Below, one piece after another: positions 36,325 to 63,653 of a stretch of DNA of 64,000 nucleotides (its first letter is position 1; each line of letters begins with the position of its first letter). Source of the DNA: a virus; IMG/VR virus record IMGVR_UViG_3300043466_001817, positions 1-64,000 of that record, one strand, 5' to 3'. The notes under the pieces were generated by a model, which saw nothing but the letters and a program-made list of their open reading frames with translations, did no database searches and was not told where the DNA came from. A program made the translations under genes and the position numbers.

Positions 36325-36735
36325 TTATTCGTCAATTAGGTTGAGTCTGGATTCAATATCATCAAGACGATCATTGATCTCAAGGATATTATCGTTTTGC
36401 TGGGCCTTGATCTGTTGTTCAAGACTTCTTATAATTTTGTTCTGAAGTTCCAGTGCATCTGCATAATACTTCAGATTAGACTCCATAGTCTTAATTTTTT
36501 GCCACAAACCATTGATTTGCTCGGTGAGTTTATGGCTCATGCTTTCATCATAGGTATAATTGTAACTCTTATTCATGGTCTTATTTTTCCAATCAATTTC
36601 AGACATATCAAGTTTTACTGGTTTAGTTTTATAAGCCGCTTTTTTAATTTCTTCTTTTATAACAGATTCTATTTCAATATCAATATCGGCTAGAAGATCT
36701 TCTTCAAGAATTGGATCAGTTTGATTTTTATCCAT
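36325..36735 (-). CDS. Hypothetical coiled-coil protein
   Basis: TTGACA...TATACT promoter 6 nt before the ATG. Confidence 0.6.
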   Translation of the reverse strand: MDKNQTDPILEEDLLADIDIEIESVIKEEIKKAAYKTKPVKLDMSEIDWKNKTMNKSYNYTYDESMSHKLTEQINGLWQKIKTMESNLKYYADALELQNKIIRSLEQQIKAQQNDNILEINDRLDDIESRLNLIDE

Positions 36736-36775
36736 GCACATAGTATACACTGTAATCAGCAGTTGTCAAATAACA

Positions 36776-37113
36776 ACACCCCTTTCGGGGTGCGGGTCGA
36801 TTCAGATGCGGGAGACCAAACCCCACTGCTTCAAGCAGCCATTGCCATAGGTGCGGCAATCAATTTTTGCAACGGTTTATTTACGACACTTGTTACCCGT
36901 GTCGGGCATCTCCTTCTTCAATACTCTGCGCCAATCGAAGCCAGTTCAGCCCCTAGATCCCGAAGCCTAGGACTTCGGGGATTGCCCCCTGCAAGAGGAC
37001 TTGACTCGCCATCTCTAATAGATTTGCAGAATCTATTTCGGTTAGGCTAATGGAGCCGAGGGGAATCGAACCCCTGTGTTGTTCGCATTTCTATCCGATA
37101 TCAACAATACCAA
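36776..37113 (-). ncRNA. ssrA: Circularly permuted (two-piece) tmRNA
   Basis: Acceptor piece first (T-arm AGGGG-TTCGATT-CCCCT, then CGGCTCC-A ending at 37051), 97-nt intervening segment, then coding piece starting GGGGCTG at 36953. G3:U70 pair, pk1, and tag frame 36857-36831 reading AAPMAMAA-stop. Confidence 0.9.
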
Positions 37114-37187
37114 TTAGGTAGAATGGATTTGAACCATCAACCTTCTCGACCCAAACGAGACGCGCTACCAAATTGCGCTACTACCTA
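37114..37187 (-). tRNA. tRNA-Pro(TGG)
   Basis: Cloverleaf; anticodon arm tctcg-tt-TGG-gt-cgaga; no encoded CCA. Confidence 0.9.
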
Positions 37188-37201: not shown

Positions 37202-37285
37202 AGACAGTGATATGGGACTTGAACCCATTATCCAGCTTTGTCGGTCAATTTTAATAGACCGTTTTACGCTGGTACATCTCTTGTC
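37202..37285 (-). ncRNA. tRNA-like RNA (T-arm and acceptor-like stem, no D-arm)
   Basis: atggg-TTCAAGT-cccat T-arm, GACA/TGTC ends, nested ccagc/gctgg and cggtc/gaccg helices. Confidence 0.55.
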
Positions 37286-37925
37286 AAGACTGCTTGTTCC
37301 CACCAAGCGGATCACTGGTTTTTTCTATATCGTAATAATATTTGTCATCATCACCACTAAGAATCCATCTATCGCTTTTATCTTCGCATCTATAAATTTT
37401 ATCATCAACTTTGTAATCTGGATTTTCTGGAAATGGTTTAGTCGTGAAAGACATTTCTTTCCAAAAAATTCTATTGTTTGGTTGTAAGGTATAATTTCCA
37501 TTATCAAGTTCAATCATATGAAGGCATTTGTATTGACTTGGTTCATCGCTGTAAGGGTTGTCATACCAATCAAATGTCATCATATAATTTCCCCAACAAC
37601 TAGTTTTATCTTTAAAAATTACTTTTGCCCTTGCTCCATTTAAGTAATCATAAGAAATTACAGTTGACTTAATTGAAAAGCAATCCCATAGTTGAAGCAA
37701 ATCCAATTGCTGAATTTCACATGGTTTGCTGCAAAGTTTATTAATTGGAACTCTACTTCTTATTGTTCCATTATCAAGCATCACATTAAATAACATTGCT
37801 CTGCTTGGGCTTGATTGAGCTCCAAACACAGTTACCTTTTCATATTCACCTTTAAAATTTTTATCTTGATAAAGATGTTCTTTTCTTAATAAACAATAAA
37901 AGTGTGGTATGTTAAGATTATACAT
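37284..37925 (-). CDS. Conserved phage hypothetical protein
   Basis: LQLWDCFS and LDNGNY.LQPNNRI.W motifs. Start reassigned so it does not overlap tRNA-Tyr. Confidence 0.75.
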   Translation of the reverse strand: MYNLNIPHFYCLLRKEHLYQDKNFKGEYEKVTVFGAQSSPSRAMLFNVMLDNGTIRSRVPINKLCSKPCEIQQLDLLQLWDCFSIKSTVISYDYLNGARAKVIFKDKTSCWGNYMMTFDWYDNPYSDEPSQYKCLHMIELDNGNYTLQPNNRIFWKEMSFTTKPFPENPDYKVDDKIYRCEDKSDRWILSGDDDKYYYDIEKTSDPLGGNKQS

Positions 37926-37928
37926 GAA

Positions 37929-38011
37929 TGCGAGCGGAGGGATTCGAACCTTCGTAGACAAAAGTCAGCAGATTTACAGTCTGCCCTCGTTGACCGCTTG
38001 AGTACACTCGC
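37929..38011 (-). tRNA. tRNA-Tyr(GTA)
   Basis: gcaga-ct-GTA-aa-tctgc anticodon arm; long variable arm. Confidence 0.93.
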
Positions 38012-42746: not shown

Positions 42747-43313
42747 TTATTGTGATACTGTAGAATGAATTTTAGCGCAGTAATTATTCATAATAATTGA
42801 ACTTGCACAACCAACATTGATGCTTCTCACAGAGCCATACTGCGGAATGTAAAGAATGTCATCACACATATTTATCACGTCTTTCGGAATGCCGATTTGC
42901 TCCTGGCCAAACACAAAGACGTAATGGTTTGCAGGATCAAACTCGTAAGCATTTACATCTTTAGCATCATGTACATTGTCCACGCCAATTACTTTAATGG
43001 CCTTACCAACCCCATCCGGGCCAGCAAGCGATGCAACATAGTCGGCCAGTGAATCAATATCTCGTACATGCTTGAAATTAGTGTAGTGATGGGTTCCAAC
43101 AGTCCCACGACGATCATATTTTTTATTACCGTAGACGACAACTTCCTTCGCAAGAAATGCGTTAGCGTTTCTAATGACGGTAGCAATATTGAAATCGTTA
43201 CCAATGTTGCAACATACCACAGAAAAATTATGACGTTTGCTGTCAAGATCTGCAATAATAGCATCGTGGTTCCAATAGTGGTAATAGTCGATAAGGTTGC
43301 GAGTCTCGGTCAT
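42747..43313 (-). CDS. SpoU/TrmH-family (SPOUT) RNA 2'-O-methyltransferase
   Basis: NIATVIRNANAF, FVFGQEQIGI and IPQYGSVRSINVGCA motifs. Confidence 0.9.
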   Translation of the reverse strand: MTETRNLIDYYHYWNHDAIIADLDSKRHNFSVVCCNIGNDFNIATVIRNANAFLAKEVVVYGNKKYDRRGTVGTHHYTNFKHVRDIDSLADYVASLAGPDGVGKAIKVIGVDNVHDAKDVNAYEFDPANHYVFVFGQEQIGIPKDVINMCDDILYIPQYGSVRSINVGCASSIIMNNYCAKIHSTVSQ

Positions 43314-43328
43314 TGGTTATAGTATACA

Positions 43329-44462
43329 TCAAGAACGGGAAGAGTCAACCATTGCAATGCGTTCTCCGATCCATTCCATGCAGTTCACGGCCATGCTGTT
43401 GCCAAGCGCCCTGTAGCGAGGACCATCGGGACATTCATCAGCAGACTTGTTCTTCCAAGGAATGCTAGTGTAGTTATCAGGGAAGCCCTGAAGCCTCTCA
43501 CATTCAATTGGAGTCAATCTACGAACAGACATGGACTGGACAACCGCAGTGGTTGCACGGGTATCACCGGAATCAAAAATATTTTGCGTAGGTGCGACAT
43601 CACCTTCAACCCAAGTCTCATCATCTGTGTTAGACTGGGCTCTCTTTGATTTGGTGAACGGTACGGGTATGTATGCACCATGCCCATCCAATTCAGTATG
43701 AGATCTCACACCGCGAGTGCCAAGAGTTCCAGAAACCTCCTGGGCCACCATAGCAAAGCCATCTGCCCTGCTGTAATCGTGGCAGGTAGTTTCAAGACAC
43801 GGGGCTATTTCGTGGCTTGTGACGCAATTGCTTGAAGTGCTTTCTCCAGAACCAAAGGCAATCTCCTCGCCCTTCTTTCTGCGCGACGCAGAATCCCGGA
43901 GCACGCTTTGGCGCTCAAAAAGAACCTTGGCTGCACTGGTTGTGTCTCCAAGACATCCGACAACGAACACACGTCTCCGTCTTTGCGGGACGGCGTTCGG
44001 ATGCCGTTGTGTTCTGACCCATTGAGAGTCAAGGACTCTGTAGGACCACCCATACCCCAGTTGCCCCAGCGCCCCGAGGAAGGAACCAAAATCCCTTCCT
44101 CCGTTGGATGACAGGACTCCGGGGACATTTTCCCAGACAATCCATCTAGGCCGTAGACGTTTAGCGATCTCAAGGTAGGTAAGCATGAGGCCACCTCTTG
44201 GGTCTTTAAGACCTCCTCTGAGTCCTGCAACTGAAAAAGATTGACAGGGGGTTCCCCCGACGAGTAGGTCGATGTCGCCTTCTTTGAGGTTCCACGTTTC
44301 ATATTTTGTCATGTCTCCTAGGTTTGGAACATTTGGGTAGTGATGTGCGAGAACAGCAGATGGAAATGGTTCAATGTCGCTAAATGCAACCGGCGTCCAT
44401 CCAAGAGGATGCCACGCCACAGTTGCTGCTTCAATTCCACTGCAAACTGAAAGATATCTCAT
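43329..44462 (-). CDS. C5-cytosine DNA methyltransferase
   Basis: SVCSGIE, GGTPCQSFS, WENVPG, QRRRRVF, RRLTPIECERLQGFP and LGNS motifs. Confidence 0.95.
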   Translation of the reverse strand: MRYLSVCSGIEAATVAWHPLGWTPVAFSDIEPFPSAVLAHHYPNVPNLGDMTKYETWNLKEGDIDLLVGGTPCQSFSVAGLRGGLKDPRGGLMLTYLEIAKRLRPRWIVWENVPGVLSSNGGRDFGSFLGALGQLGYGWSYRVLDSQWVRTQRHPNAVPQRRRRVFVVGCLGDTTSAAKVLFERQSVLRDSASRRKKGEEIAFGSGESTSSNCVTSHEIAPCLETTCHDYSRADGFAMVAQEVSGTLGTRGVRSHTELDGHGAYIPVPFTKSKRAQSNTDDETWVEGDVAPTQNIFDSGDTRATTAVVQSMSVRRLTPIECERLQGFPDNYTSIPWKNKSADECPDGPRYRALGNSMAVNCMEWIGERIAMVDSSRS

Positions 44463-52357: not shown

Positions 52358-52657
52358 TCTCTAATAGCCTTATAGGCGGTCAAGCAATTACTATCAAGAT
52401 TTTGACAAATTTTAGAGAATTTTTGACAATATTAGCACAACCCTGTCCAGAGTTCTCCATACCGTCCGCCATATGAGCAATGTAAGGGTTCTTATCGACA
52501 ATATCTTTAATTATTTTGACACTTGGGCTACATGCCGTCCGAGCACCGTCCAGATAACGTCCAGGGCCCGTACCGTCCGAGAATATATTAAAATTTTTGA
52601 GAATATTATAACCTACCTACCTAGGGGCCCTACACCCTGATAGTAGATAAAAAAATT

Positions 52658-52894
52658 TTAGATTCTTCCAGATCCCGTCCCGCTGGATCCCGTCCACAAA
52701 TTTTCAATAATTCTTGGAACGTCTGATATCTGAACAATTCCCAGACCCACCAGCGCACCGATAACCGTGGCGCTCACGAGTCCGATAACCCCCACAGTTC
52801 TCCAGAGAACAGCCCAGACGAGTCCGATAACCCCCCATGCCCCATAACTAGATCTACGGTACACACTAGGGCGATAGGGGGTTATCGGTCGCAT
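52658..52894 (-). CDS. Putative small membrane protein
   Basis: Hydrophobic GVIGLV repeats; TTGACT...TATACT promoter upstream. Confidence 0.45.
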   Translation of the reverse strand: MRPITPYRPSVYRRSSYGAWGVIGLVWAVLWRTVGVIGLVSATVIGALVGLGIVQISDVPRIIENLWTGSSGTGSGRI

Positions 52895-53025
52895 GAACAG
52901 TCCCCTAGTATACACCACAGGACCCATAAGTCAAGTAATGGCAAGGACTTACGATCCAGTGAAGACGTCCAGTTCTCTGGAGAAATGAATTAAATTTAAT
53001 ACCGTCCAGCCCGTCCCGTCCGCGA

Positions 53026-53090
53026 CTACTATCAGGGAGCGCAAATATTATGCAAAAAATCAAAGTTCCTCTGAGGAACTTTGATAGTAG
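53026..53090. repeat. Early-region palindromic element, copy 1
   Basis: CTACTATCAGG...atcaaagttcctc-t-gaggaactttgat-AGTAG. Confidence 0.92.
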
Positions 53091-53166
53091 CCGGTATGTA
53101 TACAATAGAACAACCCCCGGGCCTGGCTCTCTCCTTCCAGTCCGGGGGCGTTCCTACGGGGATTAC

Positions 53167-55269
53167 TTACTTGCAGGGCAAGCTGTAGATGGCTTCCGTC
53201 CCCCGCTTGAGGGGCTGGCCCGCCACGATGTCCACATACCGGGAGAGGAACACGCGGCTACCGCTGCGCTTCGCCATCGTCTTGACGAAGGTGTTCTTGA
53301 CCTTCGTGAAGGTTCCGCTGTCCACGATGGCATCCTCGTCCTTGACGATCTTCGGGGTCTTGACGAGGAAGTACGCATCGTACCCGTGGAAGATCTCGTC
53401 GTGGACAACGATGCAGCCGTCCTTGTACGCCTCCTTCGCAGCAGCGAACCGGGGAGAGGCGGCGAGGTTCTGATACGAACCCCTCTCCTTCGCGGCCACG
53501 CAGTACTGGTAGAAGAACGATTCGGTCAGGGCGTTGGGGCCAACCATCATCCCGACGAGGCGGGCGTTGAACTTCTCACGCAGGGAGTGCAGCATGATGC
53601 CGACGATCTCGTTGCCCAAGCACGAAGTCATCTCGCGGGAAGGCATCCGGGTGATCGTTCCCGTGATGTTGTTCTGCACCGTCAGCACCCCGTCCTGACC
53701 GACGCTGTACATGGAGTAGATATCGTCGCCCTTCGCGCCACGGATGCCGATGCCGTTGGGCGAACCGTCCGTGATGTGCATGAGCGTGGGGATCTGAATG
53801 TTGTTGGCCTTGATCCACTCCGCGACGAACTGGGACGCGATGGCGACGGCCTCCACCGTGGGCGTACCGCCCAACCGGATCGCAGCGGGCCGCTTGTTCT
53901 GAACGATGGACTCGTAGAGGTAGGCCATGACCTTCTCGCGCTTGTCCGCACCGTCCCGCGACGAGGCAATGTTGATGAGGCGGGCCTCGTTGAGCGTGAG
54001 GGTGTTCATCTGCTGTCCGACGATCTTCGGCTCAAACATCCTGCTGAAGTCGCTGTAGTACTTCGTGGGGTTCTTCTTGCGCCACTCATCGAACTTGCCG
54101 CCGTGGAACGCGGCCTGATTCACTTCGGTGTAGCCGAACACCTCAAAGGGGATCTTCGCCTTCTCGCAGAACCAAACCAACTGGCAGACCTGAAGGAAGC
54201 AGTCCGACAGAGAGTGCTGCATCGACCCGCTGAAGTCCATGAGGAACACGATGCCGTGGTTCTTGCCGTCCTGCTTGACGATCTTGGAAAGGAAGATATC
54301 GTCGTGGGTGCGGTACTGGTGGAGGCGGTCAAGGTTCAACTGGCCCGTCTGCTTGGGCCGCTCCTTGCGGATCGCGTCCGCTGCCTTGCGGCGCTCAAAC
54401 TGCATGACGAGCTGCCGAACGAACGAATCGGAGTCCTTGACGAACTGGCGGTAGCCGGTCAGATCGACCTGCGGGTACGAGGTCTGCTTCTCAAACTCGT
54501 CAAAGATGTAATCCGTGGGGACGATGGCAGCGTTGACATCCTCCAACATGGGGATGACAACCGTGGGCGAGTGAACCTTCGGGCCGGACTTCTTGCCGTG
54601 GCCCGCGATGTCAGTCTCCACGATCCCGTCCTGCATGGCTTCGGTGCCGATCGCGTCGGCCTGACCCTGCTGCTGCTCTGCCTTCTCGCGGGCAGCCTGC
54701 ATCTGCGGCGACTGGTAGATGATCTTGGCGAGGGCGATGCACTCCTCGAAAGTCTCGCAACCATCGACCGCATCCACGATGGCCTGCTCGTTCTCGTCCA
54801 TCGGAACGGTGACGAAACCGGGAACGCCCCACTTGAAGTGGATGTTCACCTTGTTGACGATGTTCGCGTCGGTCAAGTCCATCTTGGCGATGCCGAACAT
54901 ATCCAAGTCGTTGATCTCCTTGTAGCCCAAGAAGAAGTCGCGGCGGGTGCCGGGGAACTTGTCCTTCATCTTCTTCTCAATGCGGACATCCTCAATGACA
55001 TTGGCGATGCGCTGAAGCAACTCGATGTTGAACCCCTCCGCTTCGGCCTGATCGAACAGCACCTTCGACTGCTCGTAGGGAGTCCACAGGGCGTGGCTGA
55101 TCTCATGGGCGACGAGCATGGTCTGCACCGTTTCGGAAACCTTCCAGACGGGCATGACGAGGTGGCGGTTCTCAACATCGAACGACGCGGTGGCGGCGTT
55201 GGCATCGAAGGAGAACGAAATGTTTTCGGAGGCGAGGGCGCGAGCGAAGATGGAGAGAGAAGTGTTCAT
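53167..55269 (-). CDS. CobT-like metallopeptidase (HExxH) + VWA protein
   Basis: AHEISH, NVIEDVRIE, MIDAS DFSGSM, GGTP and ITDG motifs; leaderless start at 55269. Confidence 0.9.
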   Translation of the reverse strand: MNTSLSIFARALASENISFSFDANAATASFDVENRHLVMPVWKVSETVQTMLVAHEISHALWTPYEQSKVLFDQAEAEGFNIELLQRIANVIEDVRIEKKMKDKFPGTRRDFFLGYKEINDLDMFGIAKMDLTDANIVNKVNIHFKWGVPGFVTVPMDENEQAIVDAVDGCETFEECIALAKIIYQSPQMQAAREKAEQQQGQADAIGTEAMQDGIVETDIAGHGKKSGPKVHSPTVVIPMLEDVNAAIVPTDYIFDEFEKQTSYPQVDLTGYRQFVKDSDSFVRQLVMQFERRKAADAIRKERPKQTGQLNLDRLHQYRTHDDIFLSKIVKQDGKNHGIVFLMDFSGSMQHSLSDCFLQVCQLVWFCEKAKIPFEVFGYTEVNQAAFHGGKFDEWRKKNPTKYYSDFSRMFEPKIVGQQMNTLTLNEARLINIASSRDGADKREKVMAYLYESIVQNKRPAAIRLGGTPTVEAVAIASQFVAEWIKANNIQIPTLMHITDGSPNGIGIRGAKGDDIYSMYSVGQDGVLTVQNNITGTITRMPSREMTSCLGNEIVGIMLHSLREKFNARLVGMMVGPNALTESFFYQYCVAAKERGSYQNLAASPRFAAAKEAYKDGCIVVHDEIFHGYDAYFLVKTPKIVKDEDAIVDSGTFTKVKNTFVKTMAKRSGSRVFLSRYVDIVAGQPLKRGTEAIYSLPCK

Positions 55270-55365
55270 GCGCTCATTGTAGCAGGTCTGTAGGTGAATG
55301 CAACTACTAGGATCGGAAAATGGCAATTCTTTTTTGCGTCCGATAAGGGACCGGCCCCGTCCAGG

Positions 55366-55434
55366 CTACTATCAGGCCGTCAAGCAAATAACACAAAATT
55401 CTCAAAGATTCCTCAGAGGAATCTTTGATAGTAG
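55366..55434. repeat. Early-region palindromic element, copy 2
   Basis: CTACTATCAGG...tcaaagattcctc-a-gaggaatctttga-TAGTAG. Confidence 0.92.
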
Positions 55435-55494
55435 CCCCTGCCTGGAAGATCCCCTGCCCCTTTCGGAGCAGGGGATCTTGTCCTCTGAACAGCA

Positions 55495-55716
55495 TCAGAC
55501 CGTGGCCGGTGCGATCAGGGAGGTCAGGTCGTAGACCCCCTTGCTGACCGCGCTCTTGTGATCCTTCAGCACCCAAGTGGGGATGCCCTTCATGTTGATC
55601 GCCTGGGCGACGGCCAGCAGGTCGGCCTTGCTGAAGCTGTCGGTGGGGCGGTTGTGAACCTCCGCGTAGTGCTTGGCGGCGGCGACGAAACGGTTGCGCT
55701 TATTGAGGTACGGCAT
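55495..55716 (-). CDS. Small protein resembling the N-terminal domain of the adjacent AAA+ ATPase
   Basis: IPTWVLKD...KGVYDL versus LPAWLVTD...RGLYSI. Confidence 0.7.
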   Translation of the reverse strand: MPYLNKRNRFVAAAKHYAEVHNRPTDSFSKADLLAVAQAINMKGIPTWVLKDHKSAVSKGVYDLTSLIAPATV

Positions 55717-55734
55717 TGTCAGAATCTCCTTGTG

Positions 55735-56997
55735 TTAGGCGTTGAGAGCGTAGGAAGTGTCAGTCGGGGCAGCGACAGGCTGCGCCTTCTTGTCCGCACC
55801 CTCCGGCATCGGCAGGATGGTGGGGTCGATCTTGGTGTAGAGGTCGAAGAAAGCCTTCTGCGTGGCGGGGTCGAACCGCGTCAGCGTCAACTTGATCGCC
55901 TTCTCCTTGTCCGCGAAGATGGCGAACGCCTTGCAGACCTCCTCCAAGCGGCGGGTCGTGATGATGTCATCCAAGCCGCCCTCCTTGAAGCCCAAGCGGA
56001 TCGTTTCCGCCCACTTGGTGAGGTACTGGGCGAACTCCTTGTCCTCGCGCCCGTAAGCCTTCATCTTGCGGATGATGATGCGGGCCTCCACGGTGCGATC
56101 CGCGTAGTCCTGCTCAAACCAGTACGAGAAGCGGTCGAGGAAAGCCTCGTTCATCACTCGCGTCCCGACGAAGCGGTCGGACTCGCCCTTGCCCTTCGTG
56201 TTGGCGGTGGCGACGGCGTTGAAGCCGACAGACGGGCGGACATACTGCCCGATCTTCTTGAGGTAGATGCCCTTGCCCTCAAGGACGGGCTGGAGGCACA
56301 TCATCCGCTCCGAACCCAAGTCGATCTCGTCCAACAGCAGGATGGCACCCTTCTGCATGGCCTGAACGACGGGGCCGTAGACGAACTTGGTTTCGCCGTT
56401 GACGAGGCGGAAGCCGCCCAACAGATCGTCCTCGTCGGTTTCGGAGGTGATGTTGACGCGGACGCACTCGCGGGCGTTGGCCGCGCAGATCTGCTCAATC
56501 ATCGTGGTCTTGCCGTTGCCCGACAGACCCGTGATGTAGATGGGCGCGAACTGCTTGGAGGCGAGGATGGTGGCGATGGTGTCGTAGTGGCCCCACGGAA
56601 CGAAGGTGTCGTTCTTGGAGGGAACGAGCGAGACATCGGACATGGGGAGGACGAGGTTGAAGTTGTTGGTGTTGCTGTTCATGGGCGTAATCTTATCACA
56701 AGTTTCGGTCGGAGTCAAGTCCACGGAAGGAAGATTCTCAACAATCTTTTGGGGAAATTCGAGGTTCAGGCGGGCACCGGCCACTTCGACTTCGGGGATG
56801 CTGTACAGGCCGCGACCCAGGCGACGAGCCTGATCAGTCACGAGCCAAGCGGGCAGGCACGAGTACGAGACCCGGTGCGTCTGCTTGCAGAGGTTGAGTG
56901 CGGTCAGGCACTCGTCACGGGTGAAAGAGGTGCGAAGCCCGAACGACAGGGCGAGGGATTCGAGGAAGTGCTGCTTACGAAGATCGATGCTGTTCAT
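55735..56997 (-). CDS. CobS/MoxR-like AAA+ ATPase (second in-frame start at 56682)
   Basis: GLSGNGKT, LLLDEID, ATANTKGKG and NEAFLDRF motifs. Confidence 0.93.
   Translation of the reverse strand: MNSIDLRKQHFLESLALSFGLRTSFTRDECLTALNLCKQTHRVSYSCLPAWLVTDQARRLGRGLYSIPEVEVAGARLNLEFPQKIVENLPSVDLTPTETCDKITPMNSNTNNFNLVLPMSDVSLVPSKNDTFVPWGHYDTIATILASKQFAPIYITGLSGNGKTTMIEQICAANARECVRVNITSETDEDDLLGGFRLVNGETKFVYGPVVQAMQKGAILLLDEIDLGSERMMCLQPVLEGKGIYLKKIGQYVRPSVGFNAVATANTKGKGESDRFVGTRVMNEAFLDRFSYWFEQDYADRTVEARIIIRKMKAYGREDKEFAQYLTKWAETIRLGFKEGGLDDIITTRRLEEVCKAFAIFADKEKAIKLTLTRFDPATQKAFFDLYTKIDPTILPMPEGADKKAQPVAAPTDTSYALNA
56690..56718 (-). promoter_or_regulatory. Internal sigma70 promoter within the AAA+ ORF
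   Basis: TTGACT-N17-TAAGAT, 7 nt before the in-frame ATG at 56682. Confidence 0.7.
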
Positions 56998-57110
56998 GAG
57001 AACATTGTAATCTATGAGGCGAAGATTGCAAGACCAATCTTCCATTATTCTCAAGATTGTCTCCAGGTCCGATAACCGGCCCCAGAGTCTGGTGCTGTCC
57101 GTTCTGTCCA

Positions 57111-57178
57111 CTACTATCAGGGAAATAATATAATATCTCGGAAAAAATCAAAGACCGCCTGGCGGTCTTTGATAGTAG
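57111..57178. repeat. Early-region palindromic element, copy 3
   Basis: CTACTATCAGG...atcaaagaccgcc-t-ggcggtctttgat-AGTAG. Confidence 0.92.
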
Positions 57179-57253
57179 TGGCAAATAAAAACCCCCAGCC
57201 TAGCAACTGGGGGTCGGAGGAACATCCTCCTTGAAGAAAGAAACGAACCTGAA

Positions 57254-57598
57254 TCAGCCCTTCAGGTACTCCGAAGCCGGGCCACTCTTGCAGCAGCCGG
57301 TACCATCGTTGTAGTAGGACTTCTTGCAGTCCTTGTTCTCGTTGTGGCACTTCTCCCACAGAACATCAACCTCGCGGTGCAGTTGCTCACGGGAGCCTTC
57401 CATCTCGCGCTTGAGTTCCGCAATCTTCTCGTTGCAGGAACGACCGCAGGCAAGCACCTCGTCAATTACATACCGCTCGCTGGCCTCCGTGTAGGTACGG
57501 ATGCTGCGAATCTTGTTGTCGATGTAGTTCTTGACGATCAGGCCGCAAGCAAGCACACCGAAGGCGACGGCAAAGATCAAAGCGTAGTTCTCGTTCAT
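57254..57598 (-). CDS. Single-TM coiled-coil protein
   Basis: N-terminal TM; AGGAG SD; own sigma70 promoter. Confidence 0.7.
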   Translation of the reverse strand: MNENYALIFAVAFGVLACGLIVKNYIDNKIRSIRTYTEASERYVIDEVLACGRSCNEKIAELKREMEGSREQLHREVDVLWEKCHNENKDCKKSYYNDGTGCCKSGPASEYLKG

Positions 57599-57657
57599 CT
57601 GAATCTCCTTGTTGTTGGTGGTATTATACCACCTGGTTGTGGGTTGTCAAGTCTGAA

Positions 57658-57741
57658 TAGGACGGGTGAGATTCGAACTCACGGTGCATAAAGCGGGCAA
57701 TTATAAGTCGCCTGCTGCTCTCCATCGCAGCACGCCGTCCT
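57658..57741 (-). tRNA. Atypical tRNA with TAT (Ile) anticodon
   Basis: AGGACGG/CCGTCCT acceptor stem, ggcga-ct-TAT-aa-ttgcc anticodon arm, gtgag-TTCGAAT-ctcac T-arm; 6-bp D-stem and enlarged variable region. Confidence 0.75.
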
Positions 57742-57888
57742 GTGTGAAGCCTTTTTACGGATGCTCCTTTGTCCGTGCATTCGCAGAATGCCTCTGTGCG
57801 GTTTTATGACTACCGCCAAAACTTATAATATAATCTGCATTGTGTTTCTCAATAGTGCATTGTAGCACCTCTTTGTTCTGTGTCAAGG

Positions 57889-57962
57889 CGTTTCCGGGGG
57901 GACTCGAACCCTCAACCTGCCGCTTAGAAGGCGGCTGCTCTATCCGGTTGAGCTACGGAAAC
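57889..57962 (-). tRNA. tRNA-Arg(TCT)
   Basis: gccgc-ct-TCT-aa-gcggc anticodon arm. Confidence 0.93.
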
Positions 57963-58055
57963 ATTCGGAAGGAGTACTCTACGGTCTAGGGAATCCCATT
58001 TTCCGACTTTTCGTCCTTCCTTATTGGATGAACTTGAAGAAGTCCATCTCGTTAG

Positions 58056-58140
58056 TGGGATTGGTGGGACTTGAACCCACAAGACTTTTGAGGTCGGCAG
58101 ATTTTGAGTCTGCTGCGTATGCCGATTCCGCCACAATCCC
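58056..58140 (-). tRNA. tRNA-Leu(CAA)
   Basis: gcaga-ct-CAA-aa-tctgc anticodon arm; long variable arm. Confidence 0.93.
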
Positions 58141-58155
58141 GATGCGCCCATTATA

Positions 58156-58431
58156 TCACACTATGGGCGGGTTGTCAACCCTATCTTCTAGGGAGAATTT
58201 TTCTTCAATTTCCTCGAAGAATTCCGAATTGGCTCGGACCACCTGCTCATGGAGCCGGTCAACGTTGAGGCATTGGGCTGCGTTGTCCACCTCATCGAAG
58301 TACTGATTGATCAGTTCCTTCGGCGGGTTGCCGTTGCCATGGAGAATGTGTTCCATGATGCGGTCTGCGACAATGACCACGCGGTCATAAGCCTGGAGCG
58401 AGCTGATGTAGTGCTGTTCTGAAATCTTCAT
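58156..58431 (-). CDS. Hypothetical protein
   Basis: MKISEQHY... start with AGGAGG SD. Confidence 0.65.
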   Translation of the reverse strand: MKISEQHYISSLQAYDRVVIVADRIMEHILHGNGNPPKELINQYFDEVDNAAQCLNVDRLHEQVVRANSEFFEEIEEKFSLEDRVDNPPIV

Positions 58432-58445
58432 AGTGTCCTCCTGAA

Positions 58446-58518
58446 TGCCTCCGGTGGGGTTCGAACCCACGACCAATAGATTAAAAGTCTACTGCGCTAC
58501 CAACTGCGCTACAGAGGC
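58446..58518 (-). tRNA. tRNA-Lys(TTT)
   Basis: gtaga-ct-TTT-aa-tctat anticodon arm. Confidence 0.93.
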
Positions 58519-58557
58519 GAGATGCCCATTATATCCGATGGGCGCGGTGAAGTCAAG

Positions 58558-58953
58558 TCAGTCCTTGTCGTTGTTTCCCAGTTCCTCTTCGATGTCGTTG
58601 ATGTACTCCCGCCGGTCGTGGGGGAAGTGCTTGCGCTCCAACTCGCCCGCGAACTCGTCGTAGGTCATGGACATCATGTCGCCCAAGAGCATCATGAACG
58701 CCGCGTCACCTGCCGTGACATCCTTCGGACGCTCGTTGCGCTCCTTCGCATCCGCGAGTTCCTGGGTCGCGTAGGCCATCGCAGCGGAGGCGACGAGGCG
58801 GAGCTTCTGATCCTTGAAGAAGGTCGGGTTCCGCATCACCAGTTCCACGAGGCTGTAGATCACCTCGTGGATGCTGGGCTTGAACTGCTCCATCATGGGG
58901 TGCGGCTCGTTGTTGTCGAAGAAGTTGCTGAAGTTGTTCGTCGGGTCAGGCAT
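58558..58953 (-). CDS. Hypothetical early protein
   Basis: 131-aa ORF with GC3-rich codons. Confidence 0.7.
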   Translation of the reverse strand: MPDPTNNFSNFFDNNEPHPMMEQFKPSIHEVIYSLVELVMRNPTFFKDQKLRLVASAAMAYATQELADAKERNERPKDVTAGDAAFMMLLGDMMSMTYDEFAGELERKHFPHDRREYINDIEEELGNNDKD

Positions 58954-59176
58954 TGTTGGCTTCCTTGATCTGTGCGTGAAGGTTGAGGATGAACTCGTAC
59001 TCGTCGTCGGTGGTCATGTCGGGGTCGGCCATCTTGGTCAGCATCACATACGCTGACCCCATTCGCATCACCTTCTCCGGGTCGGTGTCCCAGTCCGGGT
59101 TAGCGAAGATGAAGTCGGAGATGCTGTTCAGCAGGTCGCTGACATTGCAGGTGGTGGGCTTCTTGGGCTTGTTCAT
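58946..59176 (-). CDS. Hypothetical early protein
   Basis: TTGACA-N17-TACAAT-N6-ATG. Confidence 0.7.
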   Translation of the reverse strand: MNKPKKPTTCNVSDLLNSISDFIFANPDWDTDPEKVMRMGSAYVMLTKMADPDMTTDDEYEFILNLHAQIKEANNA

Positions 59177-59194
59177 GGTGGTATTGTACCGAAG

Positions 59195-59524
59195 TCAGAG
59201 GGGGCTGTCAAGCAGGGAATAGTCGATATTCGAAACAGAAACCTCGAGGCCCCAATGCTCCAAAGTTTTCTTCATATCGTCCACGAAAGTCAACTGGAGC
59301 ATCGGGTCGCAGTCGAAGTTGAGACAGGCGGTGATCATGCAGAACTCGTTCGCAATGTCGAACTGGAAGGTGGGGTTCTGTCCACGGGTCACGGCGTACC
59401 TATCGTCCGCAAAGTTCCATGCATGAAGGTAAGCGTTCGACATCTCCTTGAGGCGCATGGTAGCCCAAGACCGGCTCCGTGCCGTCTTGTGCATAACGAC
59501 GGTGATGTTGCTGTAGAGTGCCAT
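59195..59524 (-). CDS. Hypothetical early protein
   Basis: 109-aa ORF coupled to the upstream gene. Confidence 0.65.
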   Translation of the reverse strand: MALYSNITVVMHKTARSRSWATMRLKEMSNAYLHAWNFADDRYAVTRGQNPTFQFDIANEFCMITACLNFDCDPMLQLTFVDDMKKTLEHWGLEVSVSNIDYSLLDSPL

Positions 59525-59760
59525 CAGTCGAAGTCCTCGTCATCCACGAAGTCAGATGCGTCGAAGTCGCTCATCTCCGGGATGTCATCGTCGTGTTCGG
59601 TGTAGTCATCGTCCGCGTCGTAGAGGCCGATCATGCGGCGAGCCTCCGCTTCGCTGTAGCCTTCGGCCATCAACTCTTCGATGGCCTCCTCGTCGGTCAT
59701 CTCCTCAATGGCGTGGTCGTACTGATCGTCGGTGTTGTCGAAGTCGTTGTCAATGTCCAT
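59524..59760 (-). CDS. Extremely acidic 78-aa early protein
   Basis: MDIDNDFDNTDDQYDHAIEEMTDEE...; TTGCAT...TATACT-N6-ATG. Confidence 0.7.
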   Translation of the reverse strand: MDIDNDFDNTDDQYDHAIEEMTDEEAIEELMAEGYSEAEARRMIGLYDADDDYTEHDDDIPEMSDFDASDFVDDEDFD

Positions 59761-59854
59761 GCGCGCAGTATAGCCTATACCGGCGGGGATGCAAGCGGTA
59801 GCATCCAAGAAAACGAAATATATTTTGCGTCCCATAACGTCCAGGTGGTCCGGG

Positions 59855-59917
59855 CTACTATCAGGCGGCGGCCGGTCCTATAAGAAATCAAAAATGCCTG
59901 GGCATTTTTGATAGTAG
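59855..59917. repeat. Early-region palindromic element, copy 4
   Basis: CTACTATCAGG...atcaaaaatgcc-tg-ggcatttttgat-AGTAG. Confidence 0.92.
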
Positions 59918-60058
59918 TCAAATAAAATGCCCCACCTTGAAGAAGGTGGGGCGTGGGAGCTACCGTCCAAACTCCCGCGTTTCTCCGCACAGCGCTGTAC
60001 GGATCTTTTTTATGCCGCTTGTGGCCACACAGGGCATCCGGTTTTGATGGTTTGGGCG

Positions 60059-60292
60059 TTAGTCCTTGAACTCGCATCCCGTCACGACATAGCGAAGTCC
60101 GCCAAGCGTGAAGGTCAGGGTGAACGCGCAGAAGTACATCACGCCAGCGCAGAAGAGTCCGACTGCGTTGAGCAGCCACGAAATGTCGTTGGGGGCGAGG
60201 AATGCGTAGGTAAAGATCATCGGGAGGAACCACGCCGCAATCAGGACGAGGGCACCGATGAAACGGTCGATGTAGGAGGTGGTGAGGTTCAT
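60059..60292 (-). CDS. Small 2-TM membrane protein
   Basis: Two hydrophobic helices; TTGACA-N17-TACAAT-N6-ATG. Confidence 0.7.
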   Translation of the reverse strand: MNLTTSYIDRFIGALVLIAAWFLPMIFTYAFLAPNDISWLLNAVGLFCAGVMYFCAFTLTFTLGGLRYVVTGCEFKD

Positions 60293-60323
60293 GGGAGTAT
60301 TGTACCTGGGTTGCAGGCGAATG

Positions 60324-60623
60324 TCAAGCCCAGTTCAGCATCTTCTCCGTCTTGGGCGAGAATCCCATGATCCCGGTGATCTTGTCCTCACCGATCAGGA
60401 TCCAGTCCTTCTTGGTGATGTCGAAGGCGCAGATGTAGCCTTCGGTGGTGTGACGGAGGCCCTTCGGCAGATTGCCGCCGAGGTGACGGATGAAGGTCGC
60501 GTCCGTAGTGACCTCACGGGCAGCGGGAGTGCCGTCCTTCTTCGTGAAAGTGACCATCACGGTGTCGTTGTTGGAGAGCGAAACGCGGAGGACGGTAGCG
60601 AGAGGCAGGTCGGTGGTGTTCAT
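60324..60623 (-). CDS. WYL_2/Sm-like SH3 beta-barrel protein
   Basis: VTFTKKDGT...T.D...FDI.KKDW pattern. Confidence 0.7.
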   Translation of the reverse strand: MNTTDLPLATVLRVSLSNNDTVMVTFTKKDGTPAAREVTTDATFIRHLGGNLPKGLRHTTEGYICAFDITKKDWILIGEDKITGIMGFSPKTEKMLNWA

Positions 60624-60733
60624 GTGAGTATTGTAGCCGGTTGGGGGTGAAAGTCAAGAGGGAAAGAAAGATTTTTTGGTGGTTTCGGGAGGGGGCGGTA
60701 ACTCAACCCCCTCCCATCATGCACCACCATGAT

Positions 60734-61135
60734 TTACTGGATCAGGTCCTGCGCGGTGGGGACGCCCTGCTTCTCGAACTTCTCCGCTTCGGCCTGGAGG
60801 ATCTCGAAGAACAACTTCGGGCACTTCATCTGCAAGGCGGTGATGTTCTCACCGTTGTCCCCCGCGAGGATCGCGTCCCCGACGAGCGGCTGCTTGCAGA
60901 TGATGGAGGCGCGGGTGTTGAAGCGCGGGTTGTCGATGCACAGACCCTCCTCATCGATCCACATCATCGAATCCTCGATGTGGTTCAGCGGGACGCTGAT
61001 CGGCTGCACGAGGCGGCACGACATGATCGGGTACATCGACTCCAACGGGTTGTCGGCGTTCAGTTCCACGACGCGGACGGGCTGGTTGATGTCGGCGGGG
61101 ATCAGGATGGCGGGGATGGTGGTGATGTTCGACAC
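60734..61135 (-). CDS. DUF3846-like protein
   Basis: MWIDEEGL...FNTRAS...LVGDAILAG pattern. Confidence 0.75.
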   Translation of the reverse strand: MSNITTIPAILIPADINQPVRVVELNADNPLESMYPIMSCRLVQPISVPLNHIEDSMMWIDEEGLCIDNPRFNTRASIICKQPLVGDAILAGDNGENITALQMKCPKLFFEILQAEAEKFEKQGVPTAQDLIQ

Positions 61136-61282
61136 GGTGGTGACTCCTGCCCCTGTGGGGCAACTGGGTGATACGCGAATTGTAGCAGGTTGGCTGGCGA
61201 TTGCAAGTAGGTAGGTCGCGATTCGAAAGATTTATTTCTTTCCTCGTACCGGCCACAGGGCTCGAGCCCGTCCAGGTGGGCG

Positions 61283-61340
61283 CTACTATCAGGCGGCGTC
61301 CAATAAAATCAGAGGGCCCTAGAGGGCCCTCTGATAGTAG
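61283..61340. repeat. Early-region palindromic element, copy 5
   Basis: CTACTATCAGG...atcagagggccct-ag-agggccctctgat-AGTAG. Confidence 0.92.
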
Positions 61341-61354
61341 CCCGAGGGGCTGGC

Positions 61355-61495
61355 TCAAACTTCTCGAGCCAGTTCCCTCTTTCCCTCCCTCCGCGCCATC
61401 CGAGGGTCGCGGCTCTTCTTGCCCCAAGTCTTGGGGCGGAGCCGGATGCCTTCACGGAAAGCGTCGTGGACGAACTTGCCTGGGCGGTGCTTCAT
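61355..61495 (-). CDS. Small basic peptide (46 aa; not in the ORF track)
   Basis: MKHRPGKFVHDAFREGIRLRPKTWGKKSRDPRMARREGKRELAREV; GAGGAG SD; ATGA overlap with the upstream gene. Confidence 0.6.
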   Translation of the reverse strand: MKHRPGKFVHDAFREGIRLRPKTWGKKSRDPRMARREGKRELAREV

Positions 61496-61737
61496 CGTGT
61501 CTCCTCTAGGTCGATCAGGGCGGAATCAATCTTGATCTGAAGGCGGCGAATCGTGTCGCGCTCCGCCTTCGCTTCAGCGTAGAACGCATCATGAGCTGCG
61601 GTTTCCCGGTAGGTGTTCATTTCACGCAGCACATCCACCATAGCGGTGAACATGAAACGGGAAATAATTTCCATTTCGCGCTTCGACAATTCCACCTGCA
61701 TGGCGGGCTTGCGAATTGGCTTGAGGGTGGTGATCAT
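61492..61737 (-). CDS. Hypothetical early protein
   Basis: TTGACA...TAAGAT-N6-ATG. Confidence 0.7.
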   Translation of the reverse strand: MITTLKPIRKPAMQVELSKREMEIISRFMFTAMVDVLREMNTYRETAAHDAFYAEAKAERDTIRRLQIKIDSALIDLEETR

Positions 61738-61786
61738 GGTGGTATCTTACCTTCCTGTCCTGTCCCTGTCAATAGGGTAGGGCGGA

Positions 61787-62407
61787 TTACTCCGCCTTTC
61801 CCCTGATGATGATCCACAGAAGCGCCTGCATGTCGGCGGCGGGCATGTTCCACGAATCGGCCATGAGCCGAACGGCAGCGGCGATGGCACGGTACTCAAC
61901 GGCGCTGGGCGCATCCTTCGGCTGGCCAGCGTACTTCGACTTCGGCCCGTAGGTGAGGCCGGCAGCGCGGCACATCCAAATGTCGATCACGACCGCATCG
62001 GGGTCGCCGCCGATGGCACGGGCGAACGCGTTCGTCTTCGGCCCGCGCAGGCCGTCGAAGCCTTCGCGCTGGCAACGGTCCGCAGCGTCCAGCGCCGAAC
62101 GCAGGCCCGCAGGGCGCTGGCCCATAGCGTACTCGGCGGCCTTGCGCTTGTTGAGCGCCCAAGTAACGCGGGGCGAGAATGCCGACACGACGCTAGCGGA
62201 CACTTCGAGCGTCCACGACGGCGCGATGGTGCAGAGCGATTCCGCGAACGCGTTCGCGTCGCAGTACCATGTGCCCGCCCGCTTGATGTCGGCGGGCGTG
62301 GCCGACGCCAGCAGGGTACGGAAGCGGCCTTCGGCCTCAACGCGGACGGCGGACATGCGGGCGAGGGTAGCGGCGGACGGCTGACGGGTGGTGGTGGTGG
62401 TGATCAT
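61787..62407 (-). CDS. Conserved phage protein with HhH-glycosylase-like motifs (DUF7178-like)
   Basis: G..WY, SAFSPRVTW..N, GPKT.AF, VVIDIWM.RA and MQA..W motifs. Confidence 0.65.
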   Translation of the reverse strand: MITTTTTRQPSAATLARMSAVRVEAEGRFRTLLASATPADIKRAGTWYCDANAFAESLCTIAPSWTLEVSASVVSAFSPRVTWALNKRKAAEYAMGQRPAGLRSALDAADRCQREGFDGLRGPKTNAFARAIGGDPDAVVIDIWMCRAAGLTYGPKSKYAGQPKDAPSAVEYRAIAAAVRLMADSWNMPAADMQALLWIIIRGKAE

Positions 62408-62517
62408 GCGGTAATTGTAACCGAATGGCTACAGAATGCAATAGGGTAGCCCGCTGAAACGCAAAGAATAATTATTCATCGCGGTGCATAGTTATGCAGG
62501 GCGTCCAGGTCGTCCGG

Positions 62518-62570
62518 CTACTATCAGGCCGTCCAATAAAATCAAGATCGCCGGGCGATCTTGATAGTAG
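62518..62570. repeat. Early-region palindromic element, copy 6
   Basis: CTACTATCAGG...atcaagatcgcc-g-ggcgatcttgat-AGTAG. Confidence 0.92.
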
Positions 62571-62642
62571 CCCACAAACAACCTAGCCCCGAGCTAATCG
62601 GGGCAGGGACGAATCCTCTTCGGTTGTAAGAGCACCACCTCT

Positions 62643-62909
62643 TTAGTCTGTGGCCGGTGCGAGTGCCGCCTCCTGTCCGACGCGGATTCCTGCGCGGAAT
62701 GCGTGGATCAGTTCCAGCAGTTCCCGCTTGCTGCGGTAGCCGGGGAAGATGGCGATGCAGGCTCCGTGGGGGCCGACGAGTTGCTGTAGTTGCCATCCGC
62801 CGTATGCGCCCTGGAGGTAGTACGCACCTGGCGTGGCAGCGGTCGCCCCGACGAGTTGGTTCAGGACGCGGGTGGCGGCTTCAAGGTCGCGGATCGTGGT
62901 GTGCTTCAT
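62643..62909 (-). CDS. Hypothetical early protein
   Basis: Y.L.GAYGGWQL...GYRSKREL motif; leaderless start. Confidence 0.7.
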   Translation of the reverse strand: MKHTTIRDLEAATRVLNQLVGATAATPGAYYLQGAYGGWQLQQLVGPHGACIAIFPGYRSKRELLELIHAFRAGIRVGQEAALAPATD

Positions 62910-62998
62910 AGTGTGAACCTTACTGTATCGGGGGGCGGGAATCAAGGGGGCAGGAAAGATTTTTTACTTTCTTTCCTGCCCCCCACCGGGGGCTTGGG

Positions 62999-63403: not shown

Positions 63404-63435
63404 GGTAGATGCTCCTAGTGAGAGGGGTGCGATTG

Positions 63436-63627: not shown

Positions 63628-63653
63628 GCGTGTATGGTAGCGAATCTACAATG

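What the first reader, a model, noticed from the sequence alone, without database searches (positions are those of the whole stretch)
36776..37113. Circularly permuted two-piece tmRNA in a phage, with a minimal tag
Seen on the minus strand: the 3' acceptor half (T-arm plus CGGCTCC-A, ending 37051) comes BEFORE the 5' half (GGGGCTG, starting 36953), separated by a 97-nt hairpin-rich spacer. The halves form an Ala acceptor stem with G3:U70. pk1 (CGACAC/GTGTCG; GTAAC/GTTGC) precedes the tag (A)AAPMAMAA-stop. pk2-4 appear absent, and the piece ends can pair (gttgatatcggat with atctgaatcgac). Known: permuted tmRNAs occur in alphaproteobacteria, some cyanobacteria and a betaproteobacterial lineage; C-terminal AA is the ClpXP-type degron. 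Inference: possibly an independent permutation, giving the phage its own ribosome-rescue RNA.
Basis: partly seen in the sequence, partly recalled or inferred. Interest (0 to 1): 0.85.

Follow-up and report, generated by a model that had tools for sequence, protein, structure and literature searches.

The report
Two-piece tmRNA gene in T4-like phage
This uncultured T4-like phage carries a genuine rearranged ("two-piece") gene for tmRNA, the RNA that frees stalled ribosomes. Such phage genes are already published, so it is a sound new member of a known kind, from a large unannotated phage subfamily with an 8-codon tag and a conserved folded spacer of unknown job.

Summary
ARAGORN calls a permuted tmRNA at 36740-37142 (-). 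Rfam's general permuted model RF04321 scores 64.4 bits (cut-off 47) at 36831-37111.

Two details do not:
- One 3' pseudoknot is present, so "pk2-4 absent" is only partly right.
- The proposed pairing of the piece ends has no comparative support.

The gene is one of at least 58 distinct genes in about 77 IMG/VR viral contigs. In the 56 complete genes:
- G3:U70 is invariant across 8 acceptor-stem and 8 T-stem variants.
- Helix 2 and pk1 covary (14 pairs with double changes; 0 of 500 shuffles reach this).
- The tag is always 8 codons.

The spacer comes in discrete classes of 5-6, 71-73, 95-99, about 125 and 165-167 nt. The window's 97-nt spacer is a conserved folded module found only inside these genes.

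The subfamily fails all three clade-specific models (alpha, beta, cyano) and is absent from 50,697 deposited phage genomes. Even so, permuted phage tmRNAs are published (Buchholz 2022). Earlier reports of this scan described the same subfamily on other DNA. An independent permutation is possible but unproven. Interest is moderate to low.

The parts
37325..37339 (-). Promoter-like motif ATTATTACGATATAG at the head of the RNA unit
   Evidence: It is the only exact copy in the window. With up to 2 mismatches there are 5 matches against 0.81 expected. The same motif lies upstream of the tmRNA in about 26 of 58 family genes, about 33 or about 110 nt before GGUAUUG. Promoter function is inferred.
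37114..37187 (-). tRNA-Pro(UGG). It abuts the tmRNA acceptor piece and lies in the same unit.
   Evidence: ARAGORN; Rfam tRNA model, 65 bits. Only 2 nt separate its discriminator from GGUAU of the tmRNA.
37051..37111 (-). Acceptor piece. It holds the helix-2 3' strand (GGUAU 37111-37107; GCG 37086-37084; CAA 37081-37079), the T-arm (37075-37059), the acceptor 3' strand (37058-37052) and discriminator A (37051). No CCA is encoded.
   Evidence: RF04321 alignment. T-arm and helix 2a covary. There are 8 T-stem and 8 acceptor-stem variants, all paired.
36954..37050 (-). 97-nt intervening segment, a conserved folded module. It has an outer GCC/GGC helix (37047-37045 with 37010-37008), hairpin 1 (37036-37018), hairpin 2 (about 37000-36984) and hairpin 3 (36979-36959).
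   Evidence: Alignment A3 of 40 spacers. RNAalifold predicts 18 pairs, 10 with double changes. No Rfam match. The core motif lies in 52 viral contigs, all within tmRNA genes. The spacer is shorter, longer or nearly absent in other family members.
36905..36953 (-). Start of the coding piece. It holds the acceptor 5' strand GGGGCUG (36953-36947), the D-loop analogue AACUGGCUUCGA and the helix-2 5' strand (UUG 36934-36932, CGC 36930-36928, AUGCC 36909-36905).
   Evidence: RF04321 alignment. G3:U70 is kept in 56 of 56 genes (the one decoy parse, L093, was corrected by eye). Helix 2 covaries, including col 31-278 with A-U 27 and U-A 25.
36869..36904 (-). Pseudoknot 1 (CGACAC/GUGUCG and GUAAC/GUUGC)
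   Evidence: Stem 1 has two pairs with double changes in 7 of 56 genes. Stem 2 shows U-G to C-G changes. Both are 98-100% paired.
36831..36857 (-). Tag reading frame GCC..GCU (AAPMAMAA) plus the UGA stop. The resume codon GCC lies 11 nt after pk1.
   Evidence: All 56 genes have 8 codons, across 11 tag variants that all end in (M/I)AA. Indels occur just before and just after the frame but never inside it.
36825..36839 (-). Helix 5: GCUGCU-UGA-AGCAGU, with the stop codon in the loop
   Evidence: 99.4% paired, with one pair showing a double change.
36795..36824 (-). 3' pseudoknot: GGGG/UCCC and GGUC/GACC
   Evidence: Stem 1 is 98.7% paired but invariant. Stem 2 has at least 5 different complementary versions at the same place in relatives.
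36766..36793 (-). Intrinsic terminator (GCACCCC-GAAA-GGGGUGU followed by UGUUAUUUGA)
   Evidence: Terminator scan. Equivalent hairpins or U-runs occur in all relatives.

Best explanation
The locus is a functional, circularly permuted tmRNA (ssrA) gene of an uncultured T4-like myovirus. It is transcribed with tRNA-Pro as one RNA operon that ends at the terminator at 36793-36776.

Inferred maturation:
- Host RNase P cuts before G1 (36953).
- The trailer after A37051 is trimmed, and the host CCA-adding enzyme adds CCA.
- The 97-nt spacer is released.
- This leaves a roughly 63-nt acceptor piece and a roughly 160-nt coding piece, held together by the 7-bp acceptor stem and helix 2.

Inferred action:
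- Host AlaRS charges the RNA through G3:U70.
- Host SmpB delivers it to stalled ribosomes.
- Translation resumes at GCC and adds (A)AAPMAMAA.
- The tag's C-terminal Ala-Ala marks the product for host proteases of the ClpXP type.

The likely benefit to the phage is working ribosomes, and perhaps recycled amino acids, during infection.

What is shown: gene identity, structure, the conserved reading frame and membership of a large phage subfamily. What is inferred: processing, charging, the SmpB partner and the benefit.
For: - Two programs call it: ARAGORN and RF04321 at 64.4 bits against a cut-off of 47.
- Phage context: tail fibre, gp43-type polymerase, DnaB and RNR; IMG/VR record of 94 kb.
- Family size: 87 contigs by motif, 70 loci confirmed by profile plus 7 more, and 58 unique genes.
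- G3:U70 is invariant, with 8 acceptor-stem and 8 T-stem variants, all paired.
- Core structure: 98.9% paired, 14 pairs with double changes, 0 of 500 shuffles reach this, and slid controls give 38-51%.
- The tag is always 8 codons ending in AA.
- Terminator present.
- No SmpB in this record or in five larger relatives, and no CCA-adding enzyme here. The RNA therefore has to rely on host factors.
- Precedent: phage two-piece tmRNAs are published (PMC9004378).
Against: - There are no expression, processing, charging or tagging data.
- The RF04321 score (64 bits) is far below those of bacterial permuted tmRNAs (89-170 bits).
- CCA is not encoded, unlike the bacterial consensus.
- The records are only 50-76% complete, so a phage SmpB cannot be excluded.
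- A TLD-bearing RNA could also act as a competitor of host tmRNA. Phage DS6A's TLD-only RNA inhibits tmRNA (PMC4131195).
Confidence: 0.85

Rival explanations
1. The subfamily is a diverged offshoot of the betaproteobacterial two-piece lineage. On this reading it was captured from a host and then streamlined in phages, rather than arising from a new permutation.
For: - RF01850 is the only clade model that aligns the genes end to end: 32.8 bits in the window and 31-58 bits in relatives.
- The layout is shared: pk1, tag, stop-codon hairpin, one GGGG-anchored 3' pseudoknot, terminator (alignment).
- The beta consensus tag in that model also ends in AMAA.
Against: - All scores are below the 84-bit cut-off.
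- The phage-family profile matches real beta genes (L277, L278; tags ANDERFALAA and ANDENFALAA) only in the universal T-arm, at E about 1e-3.
- Tag length and sequence differ.
- No encoded CCA.
Confidence: 0.3
2. The subfamily stems from a fourth, independent circular permutation that happened in a phage or an unsampled host.
For: - It fails the alpha (no hit or at most 26 bits), beta and cyano (24-36 bits, TLD only) models.
- No family member was found in 120 GTDB motif hits or in 50,697 deposited phages.
Against: - Failure of clade models can simply reflect fast evolution in phages.
- The break lies at the same topological place as in known lineages, between the last pseudoknot and the helix-2 3' strand.
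- No one-piece ancestor was found among relatives.
- Cyanobacterial reference genes could not be fetched here.
Confidence: 0.25
3. The RNA acts mainly as a decoy or inhibitor of host trans-translation by titrating SmpB or AlaRS, rather than as a working tagger.
For: - The phages encode no SmpB.
- A TLD-only phage RNA (DS6A) inhibits tmRNA (PMC4131195).
Against: - The 8-codon frame, the Ala resume codon, the AA end and the stop in the helix-5 loop are kept in all 56 genes. Indels occur just outside the frame.
- pk1 covaries.
- A decoy would not need any of these features.
Confidence: 0.08

Closest known systems
Phage-encoded two-piece tmRNAs of aquatic T4-like myophages (Methylophilales phage Melnitz, pelagimyophages; Buchholz et al. 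2022, PMC9004378)
   Same: - A permuted ssrA gene in a T4-like phage that also carries tRNA genes.
- No phage SmpB was found here.
- Presumed use of host factors.
   Different: - Those genes are reported as alphaproteobacterial-like, with a glutamine riboswitch in the 3' domain. Here the alpha model gives no hit and no riboswitch is detected.
- There is no blastn similarity to any deposited phage beyond 33 nt of T-arm.
- The tag is 8 codons.
- The spacer holds a folded RNA module.
Betaproteobacterial two-piece tmRNA (Rfam RF01850; Sharkady and Williams 2004, cited in PMC9004378)
   Same: - Order of acceptor piece then coding piece.
- pk1, one 3' pseudoknot and a terminal hairpin.
- Full-length though sub-threshold alignment.
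   Different: - Scores are 31-58 bits against a cut-off of 84.
- No sequence similarity outside the T-arm.
- Bacterial tags are ANDE(R/N)FALAA (10 residues) and the consensus encodes CCA.
Alphaproteobacterial two-piece tmRNA (Caulobacter; Keiler, Shapiro and Williams 2000; RF01849)
   Same: Same principle: a permuted gene and a two-piece RNA held together by the acceptor stem and helix 2.
   Different: - RF01849 finds nothing at the locus.
- Alpha genes score 89-170 bits on RF04321, against 64 here.
- Alpha tags are of the ANDN... type.
One-piece tmRNAs of mycobacteriophages (Bxz1 group) and the TLD-only RNA of phage DS6A (Hudson, Lau and Williams 2014, PMC4131195)
   Same: A phage-borne ssrA without a phage smpB.
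   Different: Those are standard (unpermuted) or truncated forms. RF00023 matches only the 3' TLD here (27.3 bits).
Stable non-tRNA RNAs in the T4 tRNA gene cluster (species 1 and 2 RNAs; from my own knowledge, not checked here)
   Same: Possible analogue of the spacer module: a small folded RNA co-transcribed with phage tRNAs and released by tRNA processing, with unknown function.
   Different: No sequence or structural relation was tested. The module here lies between the two halves of a tmRNA gene.

Membership tests
Permuted (two-piece) tmRNA, Rfam RF04321 | Score at or above the curated gathering threshold (47 bits) | tested here: met
   64.4 bits, model positions 1-213. Relatives score 67-82 bits.
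Permuted (two-piece) tmRNA, Rfam RF04321 | Gene order: T-arm and acceptor 3' strand lie upstream of the acceptor 5' strand, D-loop analogue, pk1 and tag | tested here: met
   Read directly. ARAGORN gives the permuted flag.
Permuted (two-piece) tmRNA, Rfam RF04321 | Alanine identity: 7-bp acceptor stem with G3:U70 | tested here: met
   GGGGCUG/CGGCUCC in the window. G3:U70 is kept in all 56 family genes while positions 4-7 covary.
Permuted (two-piece) tmRNA, Rfam RF04321 | Helix 2 joins the two pieces | tested here: met
   All six helix-2a pairs show double changes. Helix 2d is 100% paired. The mid-helix pair col 31-278 is A-U 27 and U-A 25.
Permuted (two-piece) tmRNA, Rfam RF04321 | pk1 upstream of an Ala resume codon, with a short tag ending in Ala-Ala and a stop | tested here: met
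   pk1 covaries. The 8-codon frame from GCN is kept in 56 of 56 genes.
Permuted (two-piece) tmRNA, Rfam RF04321 | Transcript is processed into two stable pieces, is alanylated, and works with SmpB | not testable with these tools
   No expression data. SmpB was not found in this or five related phage records, so a host SmpB is assumed.
alpha_tmRNA, RF01849 | Score of at least 50 bits | tested here: not met
   No hit at the locus. Relatives score at most 26 bits.
beta_tmRNA, RF01850 | Score of at least 84 bits | tested here: not met
   32.8 bits, full length. Relatives score 31-58 bits. True beta genes score 169-251 bits.
cyano_tmRNA, RF01851 | Score of at least 70 bits | tested here: not met
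   34.7 bits. Relatives score 24-36 bits over the tRNA-like core only. No cyanobacterial reference genes could be fetched for a direct comparison.
Standard one-piece tmRNA, RF00023 | Score of at least 47 bits with collinear 5' and 3' halves | tested here: not met
   27.3 bits, covering the 3' tRNA-like part only.
Melnitz/pelagimyophage-type phage ssrA (PMC9004378) | Alpha-like sequence, and a glnA-type glutamine riboswitch in the 3' domain | tested here: not met
   No alpha-model hit. No riboswitch family matched in the region even at E up to 10. No similar gene in 50,697 deposited phages.

The most novel reading that the evidence does not exclude
The subfamily is a separate, phage-borne lineage of permuted tmRNA whose intervening segment works as an exchangeable slot. 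In the window the slot holds a conserved 97-nt three-hairpin RNA, which would have a job of its own once tRNA-processing enzymes cut it out. Possible jobs are guiding folding or processing of the precursor, or acting as an independent small RNA.

Support:
- The spacer falls in discrete classes of 5-6, 71-73, 95-99, about 125 and 165-167 nt.
- 10 of 18 predicted pairs show compensatory changes.
- The module's core occurs only inside these genes, in 52 of 52 contigs.
- Flanking DNA is not conserved.
Probability: 0.3. Interest if true: 0.6.

Novelty: new member of a known kind. Interest (0 to 1): 0.35.

Why it matters
- It adds a large, unannotated group to the catalogue of phage ribosome-rescue RNAs. 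The group has at least 58 distinct genes in about 77 viral contigs and none in deposited phage genomes.
- ARAGORN misses 7 of 24 of these genes, and the clade-specific Rfam models miss all of them.
- It gives a compact natural tmRNA design: two pseudoknots, an 8-codon tag and no encoded CCA.
- The region between the two halves can be nearly empty or can hold different folded RNAs. That makes the role of the "discarded" spacer testable.
- It does not change what is known about how tmRNA works.

Tried and rejected
1. ARAGORN's 18-residue tag (VVNKPLQKLI...). It starts inside pk1, and a 1-nt indel in relatives breaks that frame.
2. It shows no covariation, and its GUUGAU/AUCGAC half is unpaired in 40-43 of 56 genes.
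3. Kissing of the loops of spacer hairpins 1 and 2 (CUGCAA/UUGCAG). Only one compensatory event (L014), and 31 of 500 shuffles do as well. It stays an idea only.
4. The spacer as a known RNA such as a ribozyme or riboswitch. No Rfam match at E up to 10 for the 97-nt spacer or the 165-nt spacer.
5. A bacterial donor sought through the helix-2/pk1 motif in GTDB genomes.
6. Weak full-length RF01850 hits in a Burkholderiales-type order as possible relatives. They are ordinary one-piece tmRNAs.
7. A MAG titled Janthinobacterium as a beta reference. Its 'order' overlaps the alphaproteobacterial sample (G053 appears in both), so it was used only as alpha-type.
8. Assembly chimera as the explanation of the GC jump. 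The island is internal, with AT-rich phage DNA on both sides.
9. Sharkady and Williams 2004 (PMC516066) could not be read, so break points of the known lineages were not compared from the source.

Genomes G165 and G250 are flagged as unpublished.

Full report
**What is there**

On the minus strand the window reads, in order:
- tRNA-Pro(UGG) at 37187-37114.
- Two bases, then GGUAU.. at 37111.
- A T-arm at 37075-59.
- CGGCUCC-A, ending at 37051.
- 97 nt of spacer.
- GGGGCUG from 36953.
- A D-loop analogue and a purine-rich helix-2 strand.
- pk1.
- GCC GCA CCU AUG GCA AUG GCU GCU UGA at 36857-36831.
- A hairpin with the stop codon in its loop.
- A second pseudoknot.
- A terminator at 36793-36776.

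ARAGORN reports a permuted tmRNA. Rfam's general permuted model RF04321 scores 64.4 bits against a cut-off of 47.

**Context**

The window is the first 64 kb of a 94-kb IMG/VR virus record that CheckV rates about 50% complete. It encodes a tail fibre, a gp43-type DNA polymerase, a DnaB helicase and a ribonucleotide reductase. The polymerase is only about 42% identical to those of cyanomyophages, its best matches among deposited phages. This is therefore a distant T4-like myovirus. It carries ten tRNA genes plus the tmRNA.

**Relatives**

- A pattern for a permuted tRNA-like domain found 17 viral contigs. All pass RF04321 at 67-82 bits.
- A motif from the helix-2/pk1 junction found 87.
- A profile built from the first alignment confirmed the gene in 70 loci. 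Seven more came from a spacer-motif scan.
- These yield 58 distinct gene sequences. 56 complete ones were aligned as A2.
- No deposited phage genome out of 50,697 holds a similar gene. The only matches are 33 nt of T-arm in Enterococcus phage tmRNAs.
- No paper in the library mentions the tags.

**Is it a real, constrained tmRNA?**

Yes.
- In the 56 genes there are 8 acceptor-stem variants and 8 T-stem variants. Seven of the acceptor variants pair at all 7 positions and one (L035) at 6 of 7; all T-stem variants are fully paired.
- G3:U70, the alanine identity pair, never changes. One decoy parse, L093, was corrected by eye.
- A core structure of helix 2a, helix 2d, T-arm, both pk1 stems, helix 5 and stem 1 of the 3' pseudoknot is 98.9% paired.
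- 14 pairs and 121 cells show changes on both sides. None of 500 shuffles reaches these values, and sliding the partners drops pairing to 38-51%.
- Stem 2 of the 3' pseudoknot occurs in at least five different complementary versions at the same position. In most genes it doubles as the terminator stem.

**The tag**

ARAGORN's long tags start inside pk1. The stretch between pk1 and GCC is 10 or 11 nt in different genes, so only the frame that starts at GCN is shared. In all 56 genes that frame has exactly 8 codons. There are 11 variants:
- AAPMRMAA in 19 genes
- ANELAMAA in 8
- ANQLAMAA in 7
- ANYMAMAA in 6
- the window's AAPMAMAA in 5
- six rarer variants

All end in (M/I)AA followed by a stop. 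Indels occur just before the frame and just after the stop, never inside it. A short tag is not unusual in itself: tags of 2 residues are on record (PMC11915505).

- "pk2-4 absent". pk3 and pk4 are indeed missing, but one 3' pseudoknot is present.
- The pairing of the two piece ends. It appears in a pseudoknot-free cofold of the window's own pieces. Across the family it is 74.4% paired, exactly what shuffles give, with no compensatory change. It would also displace helix 2, which does covary.

**The spacer**

Spacer length falls in discrete classes: 5-6, 71-73, 95-99, about 125 and 165-167 nt.

The window's 97-nt type is far better conserved than the DNA flanking the gene. RNAalifold predicts an outer GCC/GGC helix and three hairpins. 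That is 18 pairs, 10 of them with double changes. The outer helix is swapped to GGC/GCC in L032, by my reading of A3.

The module matches no Rfam family. Its core motif occurs in 52 viral contigs, every time inside a tmRNA gene of this family. The 71-nt class lacks hairpin 3. The 5-6-nt class has essentially no spacer. The module is therefore optional but constrained, and its function is unknown.

**Lineage**

| Model | Cut-off (bits) | Window | Relatives |
|---|---|---|---|
| Alpha (RF01849) | 50 | no hit at the locus | at most 26 |
| Cyano (RF01851) | 70 | 34.7 | 24-36, tRNA-like core only |
| Beta (RF01850) | 84 | 32.8, full length | 31-58, mostly full length |

- Real alpha genes score 89-170 bits on RF04321.
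- Real beta genes score 169-251 bits on RF01850.
- The phage-family profile matches real alpha and beta genes only in the T-arm.

The subfamily is a member of none of the three bacterial lineages as modelled. It is nearest to the beta type in layout. Whether it is a diverged offshoot or a separate permutation cannot be decided here. I could not fetch cyanobacterial reference genes, and the key paper on break points was not available.

**Mechanism (inferred)**

A motif, ATTATTACGATATAG at 37339-37325, heads the unit here and in about 26 of 58 relatives. The terminator closes it.

CCA is not encoded. Neither SmpB (this record and five relatives that are 50-76% complete) nor a CCA-adding enzyme was found. 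The RNA must therefore depend on host RNase P, 3' trimming, CCA addition, AlaRS and SmpB. The conserved frame and Ala-Ala end argue for real tagging rather than a pure decoy role.

**Prior knowledge**

Two-piece tmRNAs in aquatic phages are published. Melnitz and pelagimyophages carry them, and 53 unique two-piece forms were counted among 18,146 phage genomes (PMC9004378). Earlier reports of this scan described this same subfamily on other genomes, and phage tmRNA spacers used as cargo slots. My tests agree with them.

**Verdict**

This is a genuine gene and a new member of a known kind. It comes from a widespread subfamily that I did not find in the papers searched. The folded spacer is its one truly open question.

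Noticed in passing
window 52500-64000 (the island runs to about 64500 in the 94-kb record): A sharply bounded island of about 12 kb at 52-63% GC sits inside a phage genome that is otherwise about 35% GC. AT-rich phage DNA lies on both sides. The island carries four tRNA genes (Ile-UAU, Arg-UCU, Leu-CAA, Lys-UUU). Its large ORFs have no Pfam or PHROG match, apart from one PHROG of unknown function, and no tblastn match in deposited phages.
   Followed up: partly
window 37202-37285 (-): Between the promoter-like motif and tRNA-Pro lies a small element with a good T-arm (GGGUUCAAGUCCC) that no tRNA finder calls. Its only match is a weak YrlA-like one (21.7 bits, cut-off 69). A similar element (..GAGGUGCAAGUCCUC..) precedes the tmRNA in several relatives.
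   Followed up: no
L076:2735-2893, L087, L046, L037, L036 (about 165-nt spacers); L093 (about 125 nt): A different and longer insert fills the tmRNA spacer in these relatives. It is closed by GGUUAG/CUAACC and rich in hairpins, and it has no Rfam match.
   Followed up: partly
L078, L082, L040, L058, L043 and others: A class of family genes has only 5-6 nt between discriminator A and G1. These genes also have a different acceptor stem (GGGUCCG/CGGAUCC, still G3:U70) and T-stem.
   Followed up: partly
L007, L017, L020, L021, L302, L306, L308: ARAGORN does not call the tmRNA in 7 of 24 family loci that RF04321 or the family profile detects (L306 is cut off by the end of its locus). Standard annotation therefore under-reports this subfamily.
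   Followed up: partly
L019:2266-2530 (136-kb viral contig): An unrelated permuted phage tmRNA (tag AANDSSFDQRLAA) scores 75.5 bits on RF04321. It also fails all three clade-specific models, which match only its tRNA-like core.
   Followed up: partly
window 36742-36769 (-): A near-consensus sigma-70-type promoter (TTGACA, 16 nt, TATACT; 11 of 12 matches) starts right after the tmRNA terminator, ahead of an orphan 141-codon ORF (36325-36750). The same terminator-promoter junction is conserved in several relatives.
   Followed up: no
window 42747-44462 (-) and 37284-37961 (-): Interleaved with the tRNA genes are a SpoU-type RNA methylase, a C-5 cytosine DNA methylase and a phage 'ferredoxin'-family auxiliary gene.
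   Followed up: no
G005 (locus L108/L215): A MAG titled Janthinobacterium lividum carries an alpha-type permuted tmRNA (tag ANDNYAPVALAA). Its 'order' sample shares a genome (G053) with the alphaproteobacterial class sample. The title or the binning looks wrong.
   Followed up: no
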